The notes beneath the pieces were generated by a model. The model had not been told where the DNA came from, ran no database searches, and was given only the letters and a program-made list of their open reading frames with translations. Below are positions 2,794 to 36,946 of a stretch of DNA of 64,000 nt, one piece after another. Origin of the DNA: Escherichia phage vB_EcoS_ESCO30; the sequence record NC_106513.1. One strand, written 5' to 3'. Numbering within the stretch: position 1 is the first letter of the stretch; every line of letters begins with the position of its first letter. The position numbers and the translations under genes were made by a program.

Positions 2794-4262
2794 ATATCGC
2801 TGGCCTGTTCACCTGTTGAATTTTCAGTTTTGTCTTTCTTAGCACGTTTAGGTTGAGCCGGCTTATCCTTCTCAATAGGGATAACGAACTCAGCTTCCAT
2901 TTGAGATATATCTTCCATTGCTAGGTTGGTAGTGTTATCCATTCGCAGAGTTTCCCAGTTCATCTTAGGCATAAACTTCACGCTATCAGAAGAACGAGTT
3001 TTAACGAAGTCAAACATAATAGCACCTTGGCCATTATCAGCTTTTGCAGCATTAAGATTAGCAGCCATGTCTGCAGAATCAAGAATCCCCTTTGACATAC
3101 GTGTTCTACCATCTTGATCGATCTGGTAAGGAGCTACGCCAGCCACGTTATGTTTCTGGCAGATAGATTTGAAAGACGAGCTAACAACCATCTGTTCTTT
3201 CCAGTCATACATATCAATGGTTTTAGAATCTGGAAGTCGGGTTTGGTTAATATAGTCCAGTAAAGCTACTGTAACTTTATCACCATATCTAGCAACTAAT
3301 TTATTTAGTTCTACGTCAACTGTTGTAATGGACAGCTCAGGATCATAAACAATAATCATAGGAGTATGTAGTTCATATCCCTCTATTAGCTTACTCTCCA
3401 TATCGTAGAAATCACTCATCTTAGCCATTGTGTACTGTTTAACGAAGTTATCAAAAAGCTCTTCACCTCCATTAAACATTCTAGCTCTAGTTCTGGCCAA
3501 TCTCAACAGAGCTGCACCTTCTAGAGTATTATTACGCATTGCTAATGCTGATACACCAGCTAACATGGCTAGATTACGTCTAAATACTTCATGTTCTTTC
3601 ATCTCAATTGAGAAGTATGGAGCAATATCTCCATTCAAATATTGCTGAACCTGTATGTTTGAACAGATAATGGATTTACCAGTACCACGCCAACCACCAA
3701 GCAGTAACGTTTCTGTGCGAGCTAAACCGATTTGAGCGTCGAACTCATTACAAATACCAAGAGCGATTAAGTTCAGTTTGGTATCTTCTTCTCTCTGGAA
3801 AATACGCATGTTATCTGCGTTGAATACTTTTCCAGTATTCGTTACTTTCTCTTCTAATTTTAAGTGAAGGGAGGCAACTCGGTTGAGAATTTCTCCCTGA
3901 TCCAGCATTGTTAAATCTTGAAGCACGTCTGTTTCTAGAAGCTTCAGGAATAAATCCTGTGTATATTCGGCTTCTAGGACTTCAAGTGCCTGTTCCATGC
4001 TCACTTCTGGAATTTGAGTGTTAGCTAAGACGACTAGAGCTTGAGAAAGGCGGGCGTTCCTATTAGCTTCAAGCATAAGTGCGTCAATGGACGGCATTGT
4101 GTTATATTTTTTATAATAATTCTGGACGGCTTGGTAAATTGAGGAGAAAGCGTCATTAAAATGATCTTTATGCAGTTTTGAGAATGTTTCCAATGCTATT
4201 TGCTTCTGTTCGGAAGCTAGAAGCATCTTCAACACTACAGCTTGCACGTTAAACAAGGTCAT
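2790..4262 (-). CDS. replicative DNA helicase (DnaB-like)
   Basis: Walker A GGWRGTGKS; ATG at 4260-4262 with AAGGAG SD; ORF track extends to 4313 but that start sits inside a GC hairpin. Confidence 0.7.
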   Translation of the reverse strand: MTLFNVQAVVLKMLLASEQKQIALETFSKLHKDHFNDAFSSIYQAVQNYYKKYNTMPSIDALMLEANRNARLSQALVVLANTQIPEVSMEQALEVLEAEYTQDLFLKLLETDVLQDLTMLDQGEILNRVASLHLKLEEKVTNTGKVFNADNMRIFQREEDTKLNLIALGICNEFDAQIGLARTETLLLGGWRGTGKSIICSNIQVQQYLNGDIAPYFSIEMKEHEVFRRNLAMLAGVSALAMRNNTLEGAALLRLARTRARMFNGGEELFDNFVKQYTMAKMSDFYDMESKLIEGYELHTPMIIVYDPELSITTVDVELNKLVARYGDKVTVALLDYINQTRLPDSKTIDMYDWKEQMVVSSSFKSICQKHNVAGVAPYQIDQDGRTRMSKGILDSADMAANLNAAKADNGQGAIMFDFVKTRSSDSVKFMPKMNWETLRMDNTTNLAMEDISQMEAEFVIPIEKDKPAQPKRAKKDKTENSTGEQASDI

Positions 4263-4291
4263 TCTCCTTTGCACGCTTTCGTGCCTTCTAA

Positions 4292-4326
4292 ATGCAAAAA
4301 GGGGAAGGAGCATAGCCCCCTCCCCT
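4292..4326 (-). terminator. rho-independent terminator/attenuator between DNA-binding gene and helicase gene
   Basis: GGGGAAGG...CCTCCCC stem followed on minus strand by TTTTTGCATTT. Confidence 0.5.
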
Positions 4327-4344
4327 TAGGTTTAATTTACCAGA

Positions 4345-5112
4345 TTATTCAGCAGCCGCAGCTTTTGCATCCAGTTTAGCACGCTTAGCGGCACCATCAT
4401 AGTCCTTAGCAACCAGACCACGACGAGACAGCATAGATTTAACACCGCGCTCAGATTTACCAGTTTTCTCAGCGATCTCAGCAACAGTCATGTTAACCAG
4501 ATCCAGGCCTTCTAACAGATCTTCACGAGTTTTAGCACTTGAGGTTTCCTGTACCGGCATAGCAGCGATACGACCTTCACGAAGCAGACTCAGAGCTTTA
4601 CCGCGGATCTGCTTGATATTACGACCGAAGTGAGCAGCGATAGCTTCAATAGTAGCACCAGCAACAACCTGATTAACAAAATCAGTTTCTTCATCCGGAG
4701 TGAAGGAACGAACAGCAGCAGCTTTTTCGGTTGGCTTAACAGAAGCGGTCATTTCCAGACTCAGGATCTTACCCTGTACCTGTTTAGCACCGAACTGACC
4801 ACCAGCTACAGCAGCAGCGATTTCAGCATAGGTATACTGACCAGCATGAGCATTCAGGAAATCAACCAGTTCAGCTTCCTGCTCAGGAGTCCACGGGGAT
4901 TTCTGTACTTCGTTAGCTTTTTGTACTTCGAAACCTTCTTTACGCAGCTTAGAGCCAACAGAGCGAGCGGTAACGTCTTTGCCAGTTTCAGCAGCCAGTT
5001 CAGCGGCGATAGCAGCTACTTGTTCTTGAGAGATTACATCAACACCCAGAGCAGTGGCTTTTGCTTTCAGAGACTCGGTTACACCTTCTACGTTCCAGTT
5101 CAGTTTAGACAT
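4345..5112 (-). CDS. Ala-rich DNA-binding protein with three tandem HTH-like repeats
   Basis: Three repeats of AEIAAxxG...K/RxxxG...LS; locally GC-enriched. Confidence 0.5.
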   Translation of the reverse strand: MSKLNWNVEGVTESLKAKATALGVDVISQEQVAAIAAELAAETGKDVTARSVGSKLRKEGFEVQKANEVQKSPWTPEQEAELVDFLNAHAGQYTYAEIAAAVAGGQFGAKQVQGKILSLEMTASVKPTEKAAAVRSFTPDEETDFVNQVVAGATIEAIAAHFGRNIKQIRGKALSLLREGRIAAMPVQETSSAKTREDLLEGLDLVNMTVAEIAEKTGKSERGVKSMLSRRGLVAKDYDGAAKRAKLDAKAAAAE

Positions 5113-5884
5113 TATTATTTTTCTCCAATAGTTCTTTAATCGACAGGATTTCTATCCCATTCGTTTCGGCTTTCTTATAAGATGAGGAAGAACGCTTCGA
5201 TTCATCCTCACAGATTAGGTATTTGACGTCTTTGGTAACGGATTTCTTAACCGTATATCCTAGACCTTCTAAATAGTTTGTTGCATCCGTTCTATTTGCA
5301 AAATCTTGCAAAGATCCGGTAATACACACCGTGATTCCATTTGGCTGGGCAACTAATTCATCTGTAATGATGTCAGCTTTAGCACCCTTAATACCATTTG
5401 AGAATTTCCACGGTAGTTCGATAACATCCTTGCCTTGTGGGGAACTTAGCCAGGCTTTATAATTTTCTCCAGCCTTGCCGTCAGCCTTCACATCGTGGAA
5501 GCTAGTGCAATTTTGGGATAATTTCTTTGCTGCAACCTCTCCAATTAGAGGGATTCCTAAAGAACCGAGAACTGAACCAAAGTCAATGTCTCCGCGAACT
5601 TTAGTATTTAATTCGCTAATTAACTTAGCGGCAACCTTGCTACCCACGGCTCTAACCAAATCTTCTTCGGTTAGGTAAAACAGTTCTGAAATCTTCGTCA
5701 GCTCCAGCTTCTCAATAGTTTTTGGGCCAAAGCCCTTTAACTTCATTTTTGAACAGAAGTTCTCAATTAACTTACTTGATTGCGCTGGACAGTTGGACTT
5801 ATTCCGACAGAATAATTGTCCGTTGACAAGATCTAGCTTAGAACCACAAGAGGGACATTGTGTTGGAATTTCGATTTTCATCAA
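5105..5884 (-). CDS. NAD-dependent DNA ligase, C-terminal subunit (Zn finger, HhH, BRCT-like)
   Basis: CPSCGS...C...C zinc finger near N-terminus, glycine-rich HhH-like segments, BRCT-like C-terminus. Confidence 0.75.
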   Translation of the reverse strand: MMKIEIPTQCPSCGSKLDLVNGQLFCRNKSNCPAQSSKLIENFCSKMKLKGFGPKTIEKLELTKISELFYLTEEDLVRAVGSKVAAKLISELNTKVRGDIDFGSVLGSLGIPLIGEVAAKKLSQNCTSFHDVKADGKAGENYKAWLSSPQGKDVIELPWKFSNGIKGAKADIITDELVAQPNGITVCITGSLQDFANRTDATNYLEGLGYTVKKSVTKDVKYLICEDESKRSSSSYKKAETNGIEILSIKELLEKNNNV

Positions 5885-5911
5885 ATTTCTTCCTTATCAA
5901 TTTATATAAAT

Positions 5912-5940
5912 ATTATAGCAAGTATTTAAGCATTTAGCAA
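5912..5940 (-). promoter_or_regulatory. sigma70-type promoter (minus strand) for ligase C-terminal subunit gene
   Basis: minus-strand -35 TTGCTA (5935-5940), 17 bp spacer, -10 TATAAT (5912-5917). Confidence 0.6.
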
Positions 5941-6083
5941 CTACAATTTTAACTAACTTTGCTTACCCTCGCCATAACTTTCTATCCCTCAACTGAATGA
6001 TAATAGTATATACCTAAGCGGCGAAAATGTCAATAACCACTTTATAATTCCGATATGGTAGATGGGTAGCAAAGGGTTATGTA

Positions 6084-7055
6084 TTAATCGTATACTCTCT
6101 CTACTATGCACGGGATTACACCACCAGCACGAATCACTCGAATCTGGCAACCGATCTCTAGATCAAGAGAGTTAATATAATCAACGTTATTAAGAGTCGC
6201 TTTAACAATTGTAGCATCATCAATAATTACCGGTTCGAAATAACCAACTGGAGTTACTTTACCAGAAGCCCCTACCTGCCATTCAACTTTAGTAAGAGTT
6301 GTAATCTCGCCTTCTTCATCCTCTTTAATAGCGAATGCCCCGCGAGGGAATTTATTAGTCCAGCCTTCTCGGAAGAATTTGTTGTTGTCATTAATACGAA
6401 CAACTTTACCATCCGTCGGAATCCATTTAAAGAAGGAACGCACATTAACAACTGTTAAGAAGTTCTCATTCTCTAGCCAGAGCATATCTTTTAAATACGA
6501 TTCTGTAATACCTACAGATTCAGCAGAACATTGGATACCGTATGCAACGAAGATTAAACCACCTTCCCCGATACGTTGTGCGAAATCATCGCTATCTTTG
6601 AGGTTAATAGCACCAGAGGCAAAGTTACGTTTATTTTCTACTTCTTTTGTAATTAGAACTTCACCAGTGATTTGAGTAGGTACTTTTTGGGAAATCTTTT
6701 TAGGGATGTTCAGCAATCTTACGTTGCTTGTGACATCATTCCCTAGAATACCATTACCACGAGTTAGCGCTTGAACAAATTCGCCATTAATATATAACAG
6801 AGAAATCGCACAACCATCTAACTTATCAGTTTCTACCTGACCTAATGGGTTAAACGGAGGTTTATCTCCACGATTATAATAAACTTTCTGTAAAGAATAC
6901 ATACGATACAGATGTGGAATATCACCCTTAGGCCCGATCTCTTCCTCTAATGGGAAGCGTTTTACCAGGCGATCATATTCTTCATCAGAGATTAAAGACA
7001 TGCCTTGATAATATGCTTCTTGACAGCGTTTAATAAATTCTTTTACATTGGTCAT
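6084..7055 (-). CDS. NAD-dependent DNA ligase, N-terminal adenylation subunit
   Basis: KxDG adenylation motif (TDKLDGCAIS) and OB-fold-like region; separate ORF from C-terminal half. Confidence 0.75.
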   Translation of the reverse strand: MTNVKEFIKRCQEAYYQGMSLISDEEYDRLVKRFPLEEEIGPKGDIPHLYRMYSLQKVYYNRGDKPPFNPLGQVETDKLDGCAISLLYINGEFVQALTRGNGILGNDVTSNVRLLNIPKKISQKVPTQITGEVLITKEVENKRNFASGAINLKDSDDFAQRIGEGGLIFVAYGIQCSAESVGITESYLKDMLWLENENFLTVVNVRSFFKWIPTDGKVVRINDNNKFFREGWTNKFPRGAFAIKEDEEGEITTLTKVEWQVGASGKVTPVGYFEPVIIDDATIVKATLNNVDYINSLDLEIGCQIRVIRAGGVIPCIVERVYD

Positions 7056-7086
7056 TTATTTATATCTCTCATTAATTTATATAAAT

Positions 7087-7115
7087 ATTATATAACAAAA
7101 CTGAGTTGAAAGCAA
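7087..7115 (-). promoter_or_regulatory. sigma70-type promoter (minus strand) for ligase adenylation subunit gene
   Basis: minus-strand -35 TTGCTT (7110-7115), 17 bp spacer, -10 TATAAT (7087-7092). Confidence 0.65.
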
Positions 7116-7121
7116 ATACAT

Positions 7122-7433
7122 TTATTCTTTTTCCGCCAGGCGTCTAGCTTCTTTTTCTACTTCTAATAAAACCTCACTATTAGACAATATTTTAGTAAAT
7201 GCCTTAAATAAATGAGATGTTGTTTCTAGAGTGTATGGCATACTGAATCCACTTTTTGTTGGAAACCATTCGCCTTCTATATCTTGGAGCCAGTACCTAA
7301 TTCCTAAGTATAGATTCCCCCTAAACTCAGATACAGTTAGCCTAACCTGTTGGCCATCTTCTCTTTCCCAGATAACTATGGACTGATCATCTACATGCCC
7401 AACATAATCCTGATTTACATTATCTCCCGACAT
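7122..7433 (-). CDS. hypothetical protein
   Basis: 103-aa ORF in operon context; no recognisable motif. Confidence 0.45.
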   Translation of the reverse strand: MSGDNVNQDYVGHVDDQSIVIWEREDGQQVRLTVSEFRGNLYLGIRYWLQDIEGEWFPTKSGFSMPYTLETTSHLFKAFTKILSNSEVLLEVEKEARRLAEKE

Positions 7434-33470: not shown

Positions 33471-34418
33471 ATGTTTAATACTAAAAATATGAAAGAACTG
33501 ACTTCTGAGCAAAAAGTAATTCGCACTATTAAACGTTGGGGTATTGGTGCTGTAGTTGGTTTAGCAGGTTTAATCCTAGCTTTTAATTCATATACTATTG
33601 TTTCTGATGGTACGGTTAAAACCCAAACATTTCTGGGTAAAGTAGATCCTAACCCAGTATTACCTGGTTTCCATCTTGTAAACCCATTTGCATCTTTCGA
33701 TACTTTTAGTACAAAAGATATTGCTGTAAAATTAGATAAACTTCAGGTTCCTAGCCAGGATAAGTTTAAATCCACTGTTGACCTGACTGTTATGTTACAA
33801 TTTGATGGTTCTAAGGCACCGATCAACCGTATTAACGCAGGTACTCAGGATCAGGCGTTAGATAAGTATGTAACTGAGAAATTGCTATCTACTATTCGTG
33901 AATTTGGTAAGTCTGTTCCTAAAGCACAAGATTTGTTTGACGCTAAAATTCAGGCACAATTGCAAACCGCAATTCAACAGGAAGTTGAAGAGTATGCACG
34001 CCCCTATGGTTACACAGTTAAGCAAGTATTCCTTCAGGATATTACATTGCCACCGGTAATTATGGAACAGGTACAGAATACCAAAGTTCGTGAAGAACAA
34101 GTTAATGCTGCGAAAGCTGAATTGGCTCGTGTTGAACAAGAAGCACAGCAGAAGGTTAAACAAGCAGAAGCAGATCGTGAAGCTCGTAACAACCAAGCTA
34201 TTGCAAACGAACGTGATGCAGATGCTAAACTGTACGCAGCTAAGAAAGAAGCTGAAGCTAACGCTGCTCTGCAACGTACTATTACTCCTGAGATGATTCG
34301 TTGGAAACAACTAGAAGTTGAAATGATTCGTGCTCAGAAATATCAAGGTGGTGTACCGCAAACAGTAGTTGGCACTGGTTACGATGGCCAGATGATTATG
34401 GATATGCGTAACAAGTAA
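33471..34418 (+). CDS. SPFH/band-7 domain membrane protein
   Basis: N-terminal TM helix, SPFH-like core and long Ala/Gln/Glu coiled-coil tail. Confidence 0.65.
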   Translation: MFNTKNMKELTSEQKVIRTIKRWGIGAVVGLAGLILAFNSYTIVSDGTVKTQTFLGKVDPNPVLPGFHLVNPFASFDTFSTKDIAVKLDKLQVPSQDKFKSTVDLTVMLQFDGSKAPINRINAGTQDQALDKYVTEKLLSTIREFGKSVPKAQDLFDAKIQAQLQTAIQQEVEEYARPYGYTVKQVFLQDITLPPVIMEQVQNTKVREEQVNAAKAELARVEQEAQQKVKQAEADREARNNQAIANERDADAKLYAAKKEAEANAALQRTITPEMIRWKQLEVEMIRAQKYQGGVPQTVVGTGYDGQMIMDMRNK

Positions 34419-34442
34419 TACCCACATGTAATATTCGAAGTA

Positions 34443-34477
34443 AGCCCTGCGTTCCCTGGAGAGCGCAGGGCTTTTCT
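34443..34477 (+). terminator. rho-independent terminator
   Basis: AGCCCTGCG...CGCAGGGCT 9-bp stem followed by TTTTCT. Confidence 0.75.
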
Positions 34478-34488
34478 GTATTTAAGGT

Positions 34489-34532
34489 AAAAGAAAAGCC
34501 CCTAAGTCTTTCGACTAGGGGCTTTATTGTTT
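34489..34532. terminator. bidirectional rho-independent terminator between convergent units
   Basis: GCCCCTA...TAGGGGC stem flanked by AAAAGAAAA upstream and TTTATTGTTT downstream. Confidence 0.6.
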
Positions 34533-34742
34533 GGTTCTTTAGAACCATATACTCTTATTACAGCAACCACCCATACGGGAGGCCAATCTTGACTGAAAAT
34601 CTACTCTAGGGGGCAGGATAAGAGTAGGCTTAAAGGCAAAGGGATTGAACGCCGGTATTTGTGTAAACATTGCTGGAGAGCAACAACGTGCTACAGGCAT
34701 TGGGCAGCACGAAACAGATTTTCTGCAACACATAATTCCTCC

Positions 34743-35159
34743 TTAGGAGTTATTATCACCATTTTGAGCTTTTGCAACTTGGCTTTGGCAGAAGCTATTA
34801 AACTTACCCATAAGTGATACAAGCTGTTTCCCATCCTCTGTCTTTGCGAAGTCTTCGAAAAGGGCTAGTACTGCCTGTCCTTCCGCAGAAACCTGCGGTT
34901 GTTGGGTTTGTTGCTGAACTTGCTGCTGAGCCACCTGTTGCTGCATTTGTTGAGGCATTTGCGACTGCCCGCTCATTTGCTGCATCATTTGCATAGGACT
35001 CACACTTCCAGGGTTTTGCTGGAGTTGTTGCTGCATCTGTTGCGCTTCTGCTAAACGCTGTTGCAACTGTTGTAGGTAAGGGTTATCCAGTCCCGGAACG
35101 GGCTGCTGGGAGCCCATTTGTTGATTAAATCCGTTGTTTACAAAACCATATTTACTCAT
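34743..35159 (-). CDS. glutamine-rich low-complexity protein
   Basis: 138-aa ORF, about 30% Gln with QQMQQQ repeats; convergent to neighbours. Confidence 0.5.
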   Translation of the reverse strand: MSKYGFVNNGFNQQMGSQQPVPGLDNPYLQQLQQRLAEAQQMQQQLQQNPGSVSPMQMMQQMSGQSQMPQQMQQQVAQQQVQQQTQQPQVSAEGQAVLALFEDFAKTEDGKQLVSLMGKFNSFCQSQVAKAQNGDNNS

Positions 35160-35180
35160 AATGGGCTCCTCCCCTTAATT

Positions 35181-36161
35181 TTAAGCCGGCAGTTTAGCCT
35201 GCAGACCAGCCAGAGTCTGAGTGATAGCACCAAGACTTACAGCGATTTGGTTGATTACCTGACCGTTTGCACCACTACCTGCAGCGATTGCTTCGCGCAG
35301 ACGGCATTCATTCAGTTCGTCCTGGATACGTGCAGTAGTTACACCAGCGATTGCAGTCTGAAGCTCACAGCAACATTCAGCAAGCTGACGTTCGATAGCG
35401 TTCTGGTTAGCACACATCTGAGCCTGAACAGCGGCAAACTGGTTGTTGGTCTGAATAGACTGCTGGAAAGCAATCTGAGCAGAGTCAAACTTATCTTGAG
35501 CACGTGCTATCTGGTTAGCAGCGAAAGACTGATCCATCTGACGAGAAAGATCGAACTGACCCTGAATAACGTTACGAGTTTCAGCACAGATCTGATTTGA
35601 CAGATTAGCACCTGTACCATAGATAGTAGTCAGAACTTGCTGAGTGCTAGCAGCTTGAGCAGCTCCCACACCGTTTACTGCGCTTAGAACAGCCCCAGTG
35701 CCCTGGTTAGCTTCTGTACGAGTAGTATTGATTGCAGCTAGAATACTTGCAGTATCTTGGTTAGAAAGGATCGCGTCCACAGCAGTTCCTTCAGCGGCAA
35801 CACCAACACCGCGACCAAAACCACCAAAACCACCAAATCCGCCTGTTAATAGAGCACCGATTAGGATAGCTCCGAATAGACCCATACCTTCTCCACCGAA
35901 AGCACTTGCGTTAGCTGGGAATGCACCCATGCCAGGGAAGCCGTTAGTAAATACGTTTACTGGTTCTTGCATTTTATGTTTTCCATATTTATGACAATGT
36001 TCATCATCGTCATCTTCTTCATCTTTATCATCGTGTTCACGATGTTCTTCTTCGTAGGCTTTGACTTTCTCCCACTTTTTCTTATCTGATTCCTCGTGAC
36101 GATGCAGTTCTGCTGCTACGCTAGCGACGGTTTCAGGACTCTTAGCTACTTCTTCTGTCAT
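35181..36161 (-). CDS. Gly/Gln/Ala-rich protein with acidic N-terminus and hydrophobic GGFGGFGGFG segment
   Basis: ATG at 36159-36161 with AGGAGGTG SD; acidic DEEDDDDEH stretch, hydrophobic MGLFGAILIGALLTGGFGGFGGFG, long Q/A/N-rich tail with CCC motif. Confidence 0.5.
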   Translation of the reverse strand: MTEEVAKSPETVASVAAELHRHEESDKKKWEKVKAYEEEHREHDDKDEEDDDDEHCHKYGKHKMQEPVNVFTNGFPGMGAFPANASAFGGEGMGLFGAILIGALLTGGFGGFGGFGRGVGVAAEGTAVDAILSNQDTASILAAINTTRTEANQGTGAVLSAVNGVGAAQAASTQQVLTTIYGTGANLSNQICAETRNVIQGQFDLSRQMDQSFAANQIARAQDKFDSAQIAFQQSIQTNNQFAAVQAQMCANQNAIERQLAECCCELQTAIAGVTTARIQDELNECRLREAIAAGSGANGQVINQIAVSLGAITQTLAGLQAKLPA

Positions 36162-36223
36162 TTTTTGACACCTCCTAGTATATAGAAAATGTGTGTCTCT
36201 TTGATCACTCATCCATAACATAT

Positions 36224-36252
36224 ACTTTACACTACCCCGGCGAAAATGTCAA
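36224..36252 (-). promoter_or_regulatory. candidate promoter (minus strand) for low-complexity gene pair
   Basis: minus-strand -35 TTGACA (36247-36252), 17 bp, -10 TAAAGT (36224-36229), weaker -10. Confidence 0.35.
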
Positions 36253-36368
36253 GGGGTCTTTAAAAATTGCCCCCGGATTTTTAGTGGGGTCACAAATTTT
36301 GGTCCTCACCACTTATCTGCTACCCTTAAGTGCCCTATGATTTTCCCCTAAAAAGTTAAAAAATTTGA

Positions 36369-36397
36369 TTGCTTGAATGCTAAATTCTCTGTATAAT
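36369..36397 (+). promoter_or_regulatory. strong early promoter
   Basis: -35 TTGCTT 36369-36374, 17 bp, -10 TATAAT 36392-36397. Confidence 0.7.
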
Positions 36398-36427: not shown

Positions 36428-36946
36428 ATGAATGTTGATGAGCTAACACAGCACCTCTTATCTAGGGGATTTGATACTGATAAATATCATTGCTGGTTAA
36501 GTCCGGAAGGATGGCTAACAGTCCCGTTGTATGATTTCTCTGGGATGTTGAGGGGCTATCAAACTTATAATCCTTCTGCTCCAAAAGGTCATGGTAAGTG
36601 CCCCCTTGAAGCTAAATACTTTACTTATTCTACCACCCAGTGTGTATGGGGACTAGAAACTCTCAATGGAGATGAAAAAGTAGTATTGATCGCTGAATCT
36701 GTATTTAAGGCAGTTGCGTTACATAACGCTGGTTATCCAGCCATAGCAATGTTGGGTTCTTCTCCAGGAAAAGCGTTATTAAAGCAACTAAAATTACTAC
36801 CTTTTAAATTGGTAGCTGTTGGTGATAATGATCCTGCTGGTGAAAAATTTGCTAGAAAATTAAACGGTTTTGTTTCTCCCGTAGATGTGGATGAGATGTC
36901 TACCGAAAACTTGAAAAATTTTCTTGCTATGAAGCTAAATTTCTAA
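36428..36946 (+). CDS. small TOPRIM-domain protein
   Basis: ATG 36428 after GAGAGAGGAA SD; TOPRIM-like Glu (VLIAES) and DxD (VGDNDPAG); track start 36377 lies inside promoter. Confidence 0.5.
   Translation: MNVDELTQHLLSRGFDTDKYHCWLSPEGWLTVPLYDFSGMLRGYQTYNPSAPKGHGKCPLEAKYFTYSTTQCVWGLETLNGDEKVVLIAESVFKAVALHNAGYPAIAMLGSSPGKALLKQLKLLPFKLVAVGDNDPAGEKFARKLNGFVSPVDVDEMSTENLKNFLAMKLNF

What the first reader, a model, noticed from the sequence alone, without database searches (positions are those of the whole stretch)
34486..36360. Convergent two-gene island encoding Gln-rich and Gly/Gln/Ala-rich low-complexity proteins
Two minus-strand genes (34743-35159, 35181-36161) sit inside an otherwise plus-strand tRNA/early region, bounded by a bidirectional terminator and a candidate promoter. 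One product is about 30% glutamine with QQMQQQ repeats. The other has an acidic DEEDDDDEH N-terminus, a hydrophobic GGFGGFGGFG segment and a long Q/A/N-rich tail with a CCC motif. The DNA is visibly GC-enriched versus neighbours. I cannot match either protein to any family I know; the architecture would fit a membrane-active or aggregation-prone effector.
Basis: partly seen in the sequence, partly recalled or inferred. Interest (0 to 1): 0.7.

Follow-up and report, generated by a model that had tools for sequence, protein, structure and literature searches.

The report
Mobile three-gene cysteine-motif phage operon
The flagged region is a real but uncharacterised three-gene accessory operon of T5-like phages (T5.077-079) that also occurs in unrelated phages, is dispensable in the laboratory, and encodes a probably membrane-anchored protein with an invariant Cys-Cys-Cys motif plus two small cysteine-bearing partners.

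Summary
They are the homologues of T5.077 (35181-36161), T5.078 (34743-35159) and a missed 64-aa gene rich in Cys-Cys pairs, T5.079 (34539-34733). All lie on the minus strand between a sigma-70 promoter (36224-36252) and a bidirectional terminator (about 34484-34527). All three are under purifying selection.

The same A-B-C cassette, each copy with its own terminator, occurs in distant T5-like phages, an N4-like contig, two lambdoid contigs and Pseudomonas phage RSP. About half of the T5-like records lack it. Phage bastian keeps deletion scars of gene C, so it lost the cassette.

Protein A belongs to a phage and metagenome family (348 cluster representatives) with one Gly-rich hydrophobic segment and an invariant CCC. 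Pfam, NCBIfam, PADLOC, PDB and fold searches give no match. The Gln-rich tract of B is a non-conserved linker, Pro-rich in other lineages, so the aggregation reading is weak.

A published CRISPRi-ART screen scores all three T5 genes "Not Fit". The neighbouring gene is the anti-retron Rad.

My best guess, at low confidence, is a membrane-anchored, cysteine-dependent module used in competition between phages (exclusion). The rivals are anti-defence, metal or redox handling, and lysis timing.

The parts
36224..36252 (-). Sigma-70-type promoter of the operon (TTGACA, 17 nt, TAAAGT); equivalent to T5 P12 / T5P21
   Evidence: Consensus scan. Annotated as a promoter in NC_005859 and AY587007. The hexamers are kept in distant T5-like loci L028 (TTGACA..TAAAGT) and L003 (TTGACA..TAGAGT) although the flanks have diverged.
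36162..36223 (-). 5' untranslated leader with Shine-Dalgarno sequence AGGAGGT (36170-36176), 8 nt before the ATG
   Evidence: Read directly from the sequence.
35181..36161 (-). Gene A (T5.077 homologue, 326 aa). In order: N-terminal helix (residues 12-44; 36030-36128); acidic and His-rich disordered stretch; Gly-rich hydrophobic segment (residues 92-116; 35814-35888); long predicted helices; invariant CCC (residues 263-265; 35367-35375).
   Evidence: ORF and translation. 100% identical to the vB_EcoS_ESCO30 protein. PHROG 8119, E 1e-197. pN/pS 0.19. CCC invariant in 16-, 37- and 49-sequence alignments. AlphaFold2 secondary structure. Hydropathy.
34743..35159 (-). Gene B (T5.078 homologue, 138 aa). 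In order: conserved N-terminal helix YLQQLQQRLAEAQ; variable Gln-rich linker (residues about 44-92; 34884-35030); conserved C-terminal domain T-x-[DE]-G-K...K-F-x-x-[FY]-C-Q (residues 93-131; 34767-34883).
   Evidence: PHROG 7894, E 1e-79. pN/pS 0.16. Alignment of seven cassette copies. No kinase domain despite the 'kapc' annotation.
34539..34733 (-). Gene C (T5.079 homologue, 64 aa). The Met-Cys-Cys start is shared by five of the seven aligned copies; the other two begin with variant Cys clusters (MCGCC, MSCNCGCGG). It has four Cys-Cys doublets and is rich in Pro and Phe. It has no hydrophobic segment or lipobox. Its Shine-Dalgarno sequence AAGGAGGA overlaps the stop codon of gene B.
   Evidence: An ORF of 49-91 aa with an N-terminal Cys cluster and an internal CC follows gene B directly in all seven divergent cassettes, often overlapping or abutting B's stop codon. 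It is annotated in T5 and in phage RSP. pN/pS 0.30, with 12 of 22 variable sites at the third codon position.
34484..34527 (.). Bidirectional intrinsic terminator that ends the operon. On the minus strand it reads AAAGCCCCTAGTCGAAAGACTTAGGGGCTTTTCTTTT.
   Evidence: Sequence. Annotated as an 'efficient bidirectional rho-independent transcription terminator' in T5. Every cassette copy in other phages also ends in a hairpin plus T-run directly after gene C.

Best explanation
SHOWN:
- The region is a self-contained three-gene accessory (moron-type) operon, promoter-A-B-C-terminator, transcribed against the surrounding tRNA and early genes.
- It has been exchanged over evolutionary time among unrelated phages: T5-like, N4-like, lambdoid and Pseudomonas phage RSP.
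- It has been lost by deletion in many T5-like lineages.
- It is not needed for T5 growth on laboratory E. coli.

INFERRED:
- Protein A inserts into the inner membrane through its single Gly-rich hydrophobic segment.
- Its charged N-terminal domain, with a well-predicted helix, stays in the cytoplasm, and a long helical domain carries the invariant Cys-Cys-Cys.
- B (helix, flexible Gln- or Pro-rich tether, small Cys-bearing domain) and C (a micro-protein rich in Cys-Cys doublets) have no signal peptide. They bind A and form a complex held together by cysteines or bridged by a metal.

PROPOSED FUNCTION (the least certain step):
- The complex alters the infected or lysogenic cell envelope to exclude or abort competing phages (superinfection exclusion or phage-borne defence).
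- It would be expressed early from a host-RNA-polymerase promoter in lytic carriers.
- In lambdoid carriers it would be expressed from the prophage, where it lies antisense to the late transcript between Q and the lysis genes.
For: Operon anatomy:
- Promoter, three strong Shine-Dalgarno sequences and a terminator.
- All three genes are under purifying selection.

Same gene order in other phages, each copy with its own terminator:
- Distant T5-like loci L003 and L028; N4-like L029, which carries the giant virion RNA polymerase; lambdoid L031 and L032, between the Q antiterminator and holin-lysozyme-Rz on the opposite strand; L030 and Pseudomonas phage RSP.

Accessory status:
- 216 of 436 T5-like records carry the island.
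- AKFV33 shows a clean absence.
- Bastian keeps deletion scars of gene C.
- CRISPRi-ART scores T5.077, T5.078 and T5.079 'Not Fit' (PMC11879866 supplementary files 8 and 16).

Protein features:
- A has exactly one hydrophobic stretch above 1.6 on the Kyte-Doolittle scale, with invariant Gly and Leu. B and C have none.
- Cysteines are invariant in all three products.
- The A family is essentially confined to phages and metagenomes: one hit in 185,579 species genomes and none in 5,426 E. coli genomes.

Background knowledge (not tested here):
- Opposite-strand cassettes with their own promoter that encode membrane proteins in both lytic and temperate phages are typically exclusion or defence functions, for example T4 imm/sp, T5 llp, lambda rexAB/sieB and mycobacteriophage prophage-mediated defence pairs.
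Against: - There is no homology to any known exclusion or defence protein. PADLOC, Pfam, NCBIfam and PHROG annotation are all empty.
- Topology is unresolved. Short family members have a negatively charged N-tail and an Arg after the hydrophobic core, which suggests C-in. The T5-type has a 90-aa highly charged N-domain, which suggests N-in.
- AlphaFold2 does not model the Gly-rich segment as a helix, and overall confidence is low (pLDDT 46-59).
- There is no heptad signal above shuffled controls.
- Distant A relatives occur in phages of Gram-positive anaerobes (L036), where a periplasmic disulfide mechanism cannot apply.
- Physical interaction of A, B and C is inferred only from co-inheritance.
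- No transcript-timing data were found.
- The neighbourhood is an anti-defence island, not an exclusion locus.
Confidence: 0.3

Rival explanations
1. Anti-defence module. The three proteins neutralise a host immune system, possibly a membrane-associated or effector-pore type, as part of the T5 anti-defence island.
For: - The divergent neighbouring gene (36428-36946) is the homologue of T5.076/Rad, the anti-retron protein. The adjacent tRNA genes also counter retrons.
- This tRNA/Rad neighbourhood includes a spontaneously deletable 8-kb 'Anti-Defense Island' in T5 and SP15.
- A dispensable, patchily distributed, horizontally exchanged cassette fits the pattern of anti-defence genes.
Against: - The ADI fragments that rescued phage from retrons were F6-F8 (tRNA-Tyr, ORF71/72, Rad). 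No activity was reported for a fragment holding these genes, and whether the 8-kb deletion even includes them is not stated.
- Known anti-defence proteins are mostly single small cytosolic proteins, not three-gene operons with a membrane anchor.
- In lambdoid carriers the cassette is oriented for expression from the prophage and lies antisense to late transcription.
Confidence: 0.2
2. Metal or redox handling. The proteins form a thiolate- and His-based metal-binding or redox-sensing assembly at the membrane. It would sequester, deliver or sense a metal such as Zn, Cu, Ni or Fe during infection.
For: - The CCC in A and the single Cys in B are invariant, and C always carries an N-terminal Cys cluster (Met-Cys-Cys in five of seven copies) plus an invariant internal CC doublet.
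- The N-domain of A is His- and acid-rich in the T5 lineage: 7 His and 23 Asp+Glu in 70 residues. Relatives carry HHYHHHHHEH or HKHKHKH runs.
- B and C lack export signals, so their thiols should be reduced.
- In three distant A-family loci the neighbouring gene is a roughly 180-aa protein, one copy of which matches archaeal ferritin at E 0.0013.
Against: - The His-rich stretch is absent from many cassette copies (L003, L028, L029) and from the short-form family.
- Only two Cys doublets of C are conserved. This is far below metallothionein density.
- The ferritin lead fails with a three-sequence profile, and the ferroxidase residues are not conserved.
- No metal-regulator operator was identified.
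Confidence: 0.12
3. Lysis-timing control. A acts as a T4-T-like holin or holin modulator (one membrane segment with a large soluble domain), and B and C act as antiholin-like regulators.
For: - The cassette abuts holin-lysozyme-Rz in both lambdoid contigs.
- A distant A homologue lies next to a Peptidase_M15 endolysin gene (L033).
- A SleB-type cell-wall hydrolase gene lies 2-3 kb away in T5-like phages.
- The architecture of one membrane protein plus two small partners recalls T4 T/RI/RIII. This comparison is from memory and was not tested.
Against: - The cassette is on the opposite strand to the lysis genes, under its own sigma-70 promoter that is annotated as early.
- There is no holin, antiholin or spanin family hit, and C has no lipobox.
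- Knock-down has no fitness effect in T5.
- T5, lambdoid and other carriers already have complete lysis cassettes.
Confidence: 0.08
4. One reading: a Gln-rich, aggregation-prone or membrane-toxic effector pair.
For: - B is 28% Gln.
- The A family is rich in Asn and Gln, with a Gly-zipper-like hydrophobic segment.
Against: - The Gln tract of B varies in length (130-146 aa variants) and is replaced by Pro-rich sequence in other lineages. The flanking helix and C-terminal domain are what is conserved.
- Strong purifying selection acts over the whole length of A, which indicates specific structure.
- No toxicity data exist.
Confidence: 0.05

Closest known systems
Phage morons and lytic- or lysogenic-conversion cassettes (for example T5 llp, lambda bor/rexAB/sieB, T4 imm/sp)
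   Same: - It has an autonomous promoter and terminator and is oriented against the local transcription flow.
- Its presence is patchy among close relatives.
- It is dispensable in the laboratory.
- It encodes a probable membrane protein.
- It is carried by both lytic and temperate phages.
   Different: - There is no sequence or fold similarity to any of these.
- It has three genes with invariant cysteine motifs, whereas the known examples are one- or two-gene units.
- No exclusion phenotype has been demonstrated.
T5/SP15 Anti-Defense Island (Rad, tRNA-Tyr, ORF71/72; Azam et al. 2023)
   Same: It lies in the same hypervariable tRNA region and is immediately divergent from the Rad (T5.076) homologue. 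Both are accessory.
   Different: The cassette was not among the fragments that showed anti-retron activity. Its products are membrane-type and Cys-rich rather than nucleases or tRNAs.
PHROG families 8119, 7894, 9288 and 16490 (all 'unknown function')
   Same: A and B are full-length members of PHROG 8119 and 7894. Distant A relatives also hit PHROG 9288 and 16490.
   Different: These families carry no functional annotation. Gene C is a PHROG singleton and is unmatched.
T4 holin T with antiholins RI and RIII, and Rz/Rz1 spanins
   Same: There is a superficial resemblance in architecture: a protein with a single membrane segment and a large helical soluble domain containing Cys, plus small partner proteins, sometimes next to lysis genes.
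   Different: - There is no homology.
- Strand and promoter differ from those of the lysis genes.
- C has no lipoprotein signal.
- The carrier phages already have complete lysis cassettes.
- Knock-down gives no fitness effect.

Membership tests
Phage moron / accessory cassette | Own promoter and own terminator, independent of the flanking operons | tested here: met
   TTGACA-17-TAAAGT at 36252-36224(-), which corresponds to annotated P12/T5P21. The bidirectional terminator lies at about 34484-34527. All seven cassette copies end in a terminator.
Phage moron / accessory cassette | Present or absent among otherwise collinear relatives; found in unrelated phages | tested here: met
   216 of 436 T5-like records carry it. 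AKFV33 and bastian lack it, and bastian keeps scars. It also occurs in N4-like, lambdoid and Pseudomonas RSP phages.
Phage moron / accessory cassette | Base composition or codon usage distinct from the host phage | tested here: inconclusive
   GC is 0.46-0.47 against a mean of 0.393 (sd 0.031) for ORFs of at least 110 aa. However, GC3 of gene A (0.33) equals the window mean (0.325). Only gene B (0.45) is a GC3 outlier.
Phage moron / accessory cassette | Dispensable for lytic growth | tested here: met
   This rests on the literature, not on my own experiment. CRISPRi-ART scores T5.077, T5.078 and T5.079 'Not Fit' (PMC11879866 supplementary file 16). Natural deletions exist.
Known anti-phage defence systems (PADLOC-DB 2.0) | HMM match of at least one component | tested here: not met
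   No hit at E<=0.1 for A, B or C, or for their lambdoid-copy homologues.
Holins / antiholins / spanins | Match to a holin, antiholin or spanin family; o-spanin lipobox; co-transcription with an endolysin | tested here: not met
   No Pfam or PHROG lysis family hit. C has no hydrophobic signal or lipobox. The cassette is on the strand opposite to holin-lysozyme-Rz in L031 and L032.
Superinfection-exclusion proteins (Imm, Sp, SieA/B, Llp, Cor, HK97 gp15) | Blocks DNA entry or adsorption of a second phage | not testable with these tools
   This needs plating and competition assays. There is no sequence similarity in Pfam or PHROGs.
cAMP-dependent protein kinase catalytic subunit ('kapc' annotation of T5.078 in AY587007, ESCO40, EH3 and others) | Protein kinase catalytic domain | tested here: not met
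   There is no Pkinase hit at all for the 138-aa product. The best Pfam E-value is 0.023, to unrelated families, and all are below their cut-offs. The annotation is spurious.
Poly-Gln / prion-like aggregating proteins | A conserved Gln/Asn-rich tract that is the functional element | tested here: not met
   The tract is the least conserved part of B. It is shortened in L003 and L028 and is Pro-rich in L029, L031 and L032.
Metallothionein-like / metal-binding Cys proteins | High, conserved Cys density in CxC/CxxC/CC arrays; bound metal | tested here: inconclusive
   The window copy of C has 8 Cys in 64 aa, but only the N-terminal Cys cluster and one internal CC are conserved. The CCC in A is invariant. 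Metal binding cannot be tested here.
PHROG 8119 / PHROG 7894 | Full-length HMM match | tested here: met
   E 1.4e-197 over residues 1-326 and E 1e-79 over residues 1-138. Both families are of unknown function.

The most novel reading that the evidence does not exclude
A-B-C is the first described example of a new, phage-borne, cysteine-dependent membrane system. An invariant Cys-Cys-Cys helix protein is joined by a tethered Cys-domain partner and a micro-protein with an N-terminal Cys cluster. It would mediate phage-phage exclusion or counter a host defence by a mechanism unrelated to any catalogued system. The wider CCC family of several hundred sequence clusters (348 representatives at E<=0.001) would mark a widespread but unrecognised phage function.
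Probability: 0.3. Interest if true: 0.7.

Novelty: new variant of a known kind. Interest (0 to 1): 0.5.

Why it matters
T5 is a model phage, yet this conserved operon has had no function assigned since the genome was published. Three results make it a defined, testable target:
- It is a three-gene unit that moves between T5-like, N4-like, lambdoid and Pseudomonas phages.
- Its main protein belongs to a large phage-only family marked by an invariant CCC.
- It sits next to the anti-retron gene in the phage's conflict hot spot.

If it proves to be an exclusion or anti-defence device, it would add a mechanistically new class, with membrane-anchored, thiol-based chemistry, to the phage-host arms-race repertoire. 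It would also allow hundreds of metagenomic phage genes to be annotated.

Tried and rejected
- Family libraries. Pfam, NCBIfam and PADLOC scans of A, B, C and their homologues gave no significant hit. PHROGs gave only families of unknown function.
- PDB sequence search. A profile of A gave nothing.
- Structure. AlphaFold2 of A with 16 and then 49 sequences gave low confidence (pLDDT 46 and 59) and extended helices. Foldseek against PDB and BFVD gave no hit better than E 0.1. The third fold-search job was not used because the model is too weak.
- Coiled coil. The heptad test on A residues 136-322 was no better than shuffles, so I do not call it a coiled coil.
- Gln-rich genes beside distant A homologues (L004, L033) as B homologues. 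Rejected by hhalign, probability below 1%.
- Ferritin-like neighbour in distant loci. One sequence hit at E 0.0013, but the profile found nothing and the catalytic residues are not conserved. I kept it only as a weak lead.
- Non-coding RNA. Rfam found only the flanking tRNAs at the gathering threshold. The idea that the 079 stretch is an RNA rather than a gene was dropped because the ORF and its Cys motifs are kept in cassettes with unrelated nucleotide sequence.
- Prophage copies. One hit in 185,579 species genomes (a Ruminiclostridium MAG) and none in 5,426 E. coli genomes.
- Literature. No paper mentions T5.077-079 in its main text. Only the CRISPRi-ART supplements list them. HIDEN-SEQ does not cover T5.
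- Expression timing. The Bas33 RNA-seq dataset could not be used because that phage seems to lack the cassette at this locus.
- Scan failure. The search for related loci with the 49-sequence alignment failed because it had no conserved stretch.
Full report
**Identity of the window**

The region is 96-98% identical to T5, BF23 and related Tequintavirus genomes, in reverse orientation to the T5 reference. The large protein is 100% identical to a protein of Escherichia phage vB_EcoS_ESCO30. In T5 (NC_005859) the corresponding stretch reads as follows in window orientation:
- T5.080, an SPFH/band-7 membrane protein.
- A major nick site.
- An 'efficient bidirectional rho-independent terminator'.
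- T5.079, T5.078 and T5.077 on the opposite strand.
- Promoter P12.
- Promoter P15a, then T5.076.

The second T5 record calls the same promoter 'putative early promoter T5P21'. It mis-splits T5.077 and labels T5.078 'cAMP-dependent protein kinase catalytic subunit'.

**Check of the observation**

- The 138-aa product is 28.3% Gln.
- The 326-aa product has the acidic and His-rich stretch, the GGFGGFGGFG segment, the Ala/Gly/Gln-rich tail and CCC at residues 263-265.
- GC is 0.46-0.49 across the island against 0.389 for the window.
- A TTGACA-17-TAAAGT promoter lies at 36252-36224 on the minus strand.
- Plus-strand tRNA genes surround the island.

Two corrections apply.

First, a third minus-strand gene (34539-34733, 64 aa, T5.079) lies between the Gln-rich gene and the terminator. 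Its AAGGAGGA ribosome-binding site overlaps the preceding stop codon. Its product is MCCRKSVSCCPMPVARCCSP...GGCCNKSIWF, with four Cys-Cys doublets.

Second, the high GC of the large gene reflects Ala and Gly codons. Its GC3 is 0.33 against a window mean of 0.325. Only the Gln-rich gene has raised GC3, at 0.45.

**Are the genes real?**

I compared the window with 15 T5-like loci.

| Gene | pN/pS | Variable sites by codon position (1st, 2nd, 3rd) |
|---|---|---|
| A (077) | 0.19 | 60, 36, 177 |
| B (078) | 0.16 | 19, 12, 53 |
| C (079) | 0.30 | 5, 5, 12 |

Gene C is too conserved among T5-like phages for this test alone to be decisive. However, an ORF of 49-91 aa follows gene B directly in every divergent copy of the cassette, although the nucleotide sequence is unrelated. 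It begins M-C-C in five of the seven copies. The other two begin MCGCC and MSCNCGCGG, which are variant N-terminal Cys clusters. All seven have an invariant internal CC. The ORF often abuts or overlaps B's stop codon. It is therefore a protein-coding gene.

**The unit is a mobile cassette**

Homologues of A at 35-45% identity were traced to their contigs.
- Two are distant T5-like phages (L003, L028).
- One is an N4-like phage that carries the 3,440-aa virion RNA polymerase (L029).
- One has a Mu-type portal and terminase (L030). It corresponds to Pseudomonas aeruginosa phage RSP, where all three genes are annotated as RSP_0092, RSP_091 and RSP_0090.
- Two are lambdoid phages (L031, L032). There the cassette lies between the Q antiterminator with NinG/NinB and the holin-lysozyme-Rz genes, on the opposite strand.

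In each case the order is A-B-C and an intrinsic terminator follows C. In L029-L032 a small divergent gene sits just upstream of A. It encodes a Zn-ribbon protein with a basic tail (MxRRYCPxCG...CPECG...CRPRCRQRK). T5-like phages lack it.

**Patchy distribution among T5-like phages**

Of 436 phage records that match the 2-kb query, only 216 carry at least 80% of it.
- AKFV33 goes straight from the SPFH gene's terminator to the T5.076 homologue.
- Salmonella phage bastian keeps the last 29 nt of gene C, a perfect 16-mer from inside gene C (window 34679-34694), and then resumes at window 36318.

So the cassette was ancestral at this locus and was deleted, rather than newly inserted in T5.

A is found in 221 GenBank phage records: T5-like phages plus three Pseudomonas phages. 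It was found in only one of 185,579 species-representative bacterial genomes, on a phage-like contig with an integrase in a Ruminiclostridium MAG. The lambdoid-type cassette was not found in 5,426 complete E. coli genomes.

**The proteins**

A:
- Residues 12-44 form a confidently predicted helix (pLDDT above 90) with a conserved AELxxHExxD signature.
- Residues 45-91 are acidic and His-rich and are predicted disordered. The His-rich character is lineage-specific.
- Residues 92-116 are the only hydrophobic stretch (Kyte-Doolittle 19-residue maximum 1.72). G92, L104, G111 and G113 are invariant.
- The rest is predicted as long helices, but confidence is low (mean pLDDT 46 with 16 sequences, 59 with 49) and no heptad signal exceeds shuffles.

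An exhaustive profile search found 348 cluster representatives at E<=0.001, of which 62 are at E<=1e-10. Most are 240-300 aa, lack the charged N-domain, and share motifs such as NFTTLSSINGLGRD and MAECCCEIKxxIxxDGxATRALINDLNVQNL. The CCC is the only invariant position in the 37- and 49-sequence alignments.

B has three parts:
- A conserved N-terminal helix (YLQQLQQxLAEAQxLQxQL).
- A variable linker. It is Gln-rich in the T5 lineage, short in L003 and L028, and Pro-rich in L029, L031 and L032.
- A conserved C-terminal domain of about 40 aa with invariant T107, G110, K111, K119, F120, C124 and Q125.

C is described above. B and C have no hydrophobic segment or signal sequence.

**Searches against known families and folds**

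Nothing matched a characterised family.
- Pfam, NCBIfam and PADLOC gave no hit.
- The only PHROG hits are families of unknown function: 8119, 7894, 9288 and 16490.
- A PDB profile search gave no hit.
- Foldseek against PDB and BFVD gave nothing below E 0.1.
- The 'kinase' label on T5.078 is not supported.

**Literature**

No paper in the searched library discusses these genes in its text. The CRISPRi-ART study (PMC11879866) lists T5.077, T5.078 and T5.079 as 'unknown function' in its supplementary tables. All three scored 'Not Fit' in a transcriptome-wide knock-down screen. The same table annotates the neighbour T5.076 as anti-defence ('subverts retron-mediated defense').

That annotation refers to Azam et al. 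(bioRxiv 10.1101/2023.03.15.532788). They describe an 8-kb, spontaneously deletable Anti-Defense Island in T5 and SP15 that holds Rad (ORF75, 189 aa), tRNA-Tyr and ORF71/72. Whether their ninth fragment or the deletion includes this cassette is not stated.

**Interpretation**

Well supported:
- This is an autonomous three-gene accessory operon, co-inherited as a unit across at least four unrelated phage lineages.
- It is conditionally dispensable.
- Cysteines are the most constrained residues in all three products.

Inferred:
- A is anchored in the inner membrane by its Gly-rich segment.
- B and C assemble on A.

The proposed function is the least certain step. Three facts fit a role in competition between phages (exclusion or phage-borne defence) better than a role in virion assembly or replication:
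- The cassette uses a host-type promoter.
- It is carried by both lytic and temperate phages.
- In lambdoid carriers it is oriented against late transcription, which favours expression from the prophage.

I give this reading about 0.3.

Rivals:
- Anti-defence, 0.2. It is favoured by the neighbourhood.
- Metal or redox handling, 0.12. It is favoured by the His-rich and Cys motifs and by a weak ferritin-like neighbour in distant loci.
- Lysis timing, 0.08. It is favoured by proximity to lysis genes in some carriers.
It is weakened because the Gln tract is not conserved.

Two facts argue against any mechanism that relies on periplasmic disulfides:
- Topology is unresolved. Short-form relatives look N-out/C-in by charge, while the T5 form looks N-in.
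- Relatives occur in phages of Gram-positive anaerobes.

**Verdict**

It has been annotated as hypothetical genes since the T5 genome was published, so the ORFs themselves are not new. What is new here:
- The definition of the three-gene unit.
- Its spread across phage families.
- The deletion scars.
- The large family marked by the CCC motif.
- The observation that the eye-catching Gln tract is only a linker.

Interest is moderate, at 0.5.

Noticed in passing
window 36377/36428-36946 (+): The gene divergent from the cassette is the homologue of T5.076, a Toprim-domain protein (Pfam Toprim_2, E 1.8e-5). It is published as Rad, the retron anti-defence protein. The ATG at 36377 lies inside the TTGCTT..TATAAT promoter, so the Shine-Dalgarno-preceded ATG at 36428 (MNVDEL..., 172 aa as in T5) is the likelier start.
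   Followed up: partly
window 34442-34473 (+): The terminator hairpin of the SPFH gene contains GAGCGC (about 34461-34466). This matches the consensus annotated in T5 as the major single-strand nick at 32.6% of the genome. The nick site therefore sits between the two convergent terminators.
   Followed up: no
window 33471-34418 (+): A 315-aa SPFH/band-7 membrane protein (Pfam Band_7, E 2e-17; T5.080) is convergent with the cassette. It is split into two ORFs in Salmonella phage bastian.
   Followed up: no
L007 (Salmonella phage bastian) 2985-3300; window 34539-34567, 34679-34694, 36318 onward: Bastian keeps two fragments of gene C and then jumps to the region upstream of the next gene. Short repeats (AGCAAC, TGCTAC) lie at the junctions, which is consistent with microhomology-mediated deletion of the cassette. 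Bastian carries NadR-like and PnuC genes where T5 has Rad.
   Followed up: yes
L029 3256-3411(-), L030 3246-3392(-), L031 3244-3417(-), L032 3216-3419(-): In the non-T5 carriers a small gene (48-67 aa) is transcribed divergently, immediately upstream of gene A. It encodes a Zn-ribbon protein with a basic tail (CPxCG...CPECG...CRPRCRQRK). It may be a fourth, regulatory member of the cassette.
   Followed up: partly
L031 about 3440-3470: A perfect palindrome, CCACGGTGCTAA-TAC-TTAGCACCGTGG, lies between the putative promoter and the start of gene A. It is partly kept in L032. It could be an operator or a leader hairpin. No equivalent was seen in the window.
   Followed up: no
L004 9179-9748, L033 7337-7864, L034 966-1526: Distant A-family genes have a conserved neighbour of about 180 aa with a GFKRxxRY motif. 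The L004 copy matches archaeal ferritin 1S3Q at E 0.0013. A three-sequence profile finds nothing in the PDB, and the ferroxidase residues are not conserved. A second recurrent neighbour is a roughly 97-aa protein (QNTGxxxIYxxKQ).
   Followed up: partly
L037 (Pseudomonas phage RSP, MK803322) 3075-4675; AY587007; ESCO40; EH3: Public annotations appear to be wrong. Gene C is labelled 'alpha/beta hydrolase like protein' in RSP. Gene B is labelled 'cAMP-dependent protein kinase catalytic subunit' in several T5-like records. AY587007 splits gene A into two ORFs.
   Followed up: yes
L036 (Ruminiclostridium MAG contig) 5701-7331: The only A-family hit in bacterial genome assemblies lies on a phage-like contig with an integrase. 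That protein ends in a Cys-rich tail (GCACNNGCGC). A 128-aa Cys-rich protein (MSCKPVCKLCNN...CC...CC) lies two genes downstream. Cys-rich partners may therefore recur outside the enterobacterial cassette.
   Followed up: no
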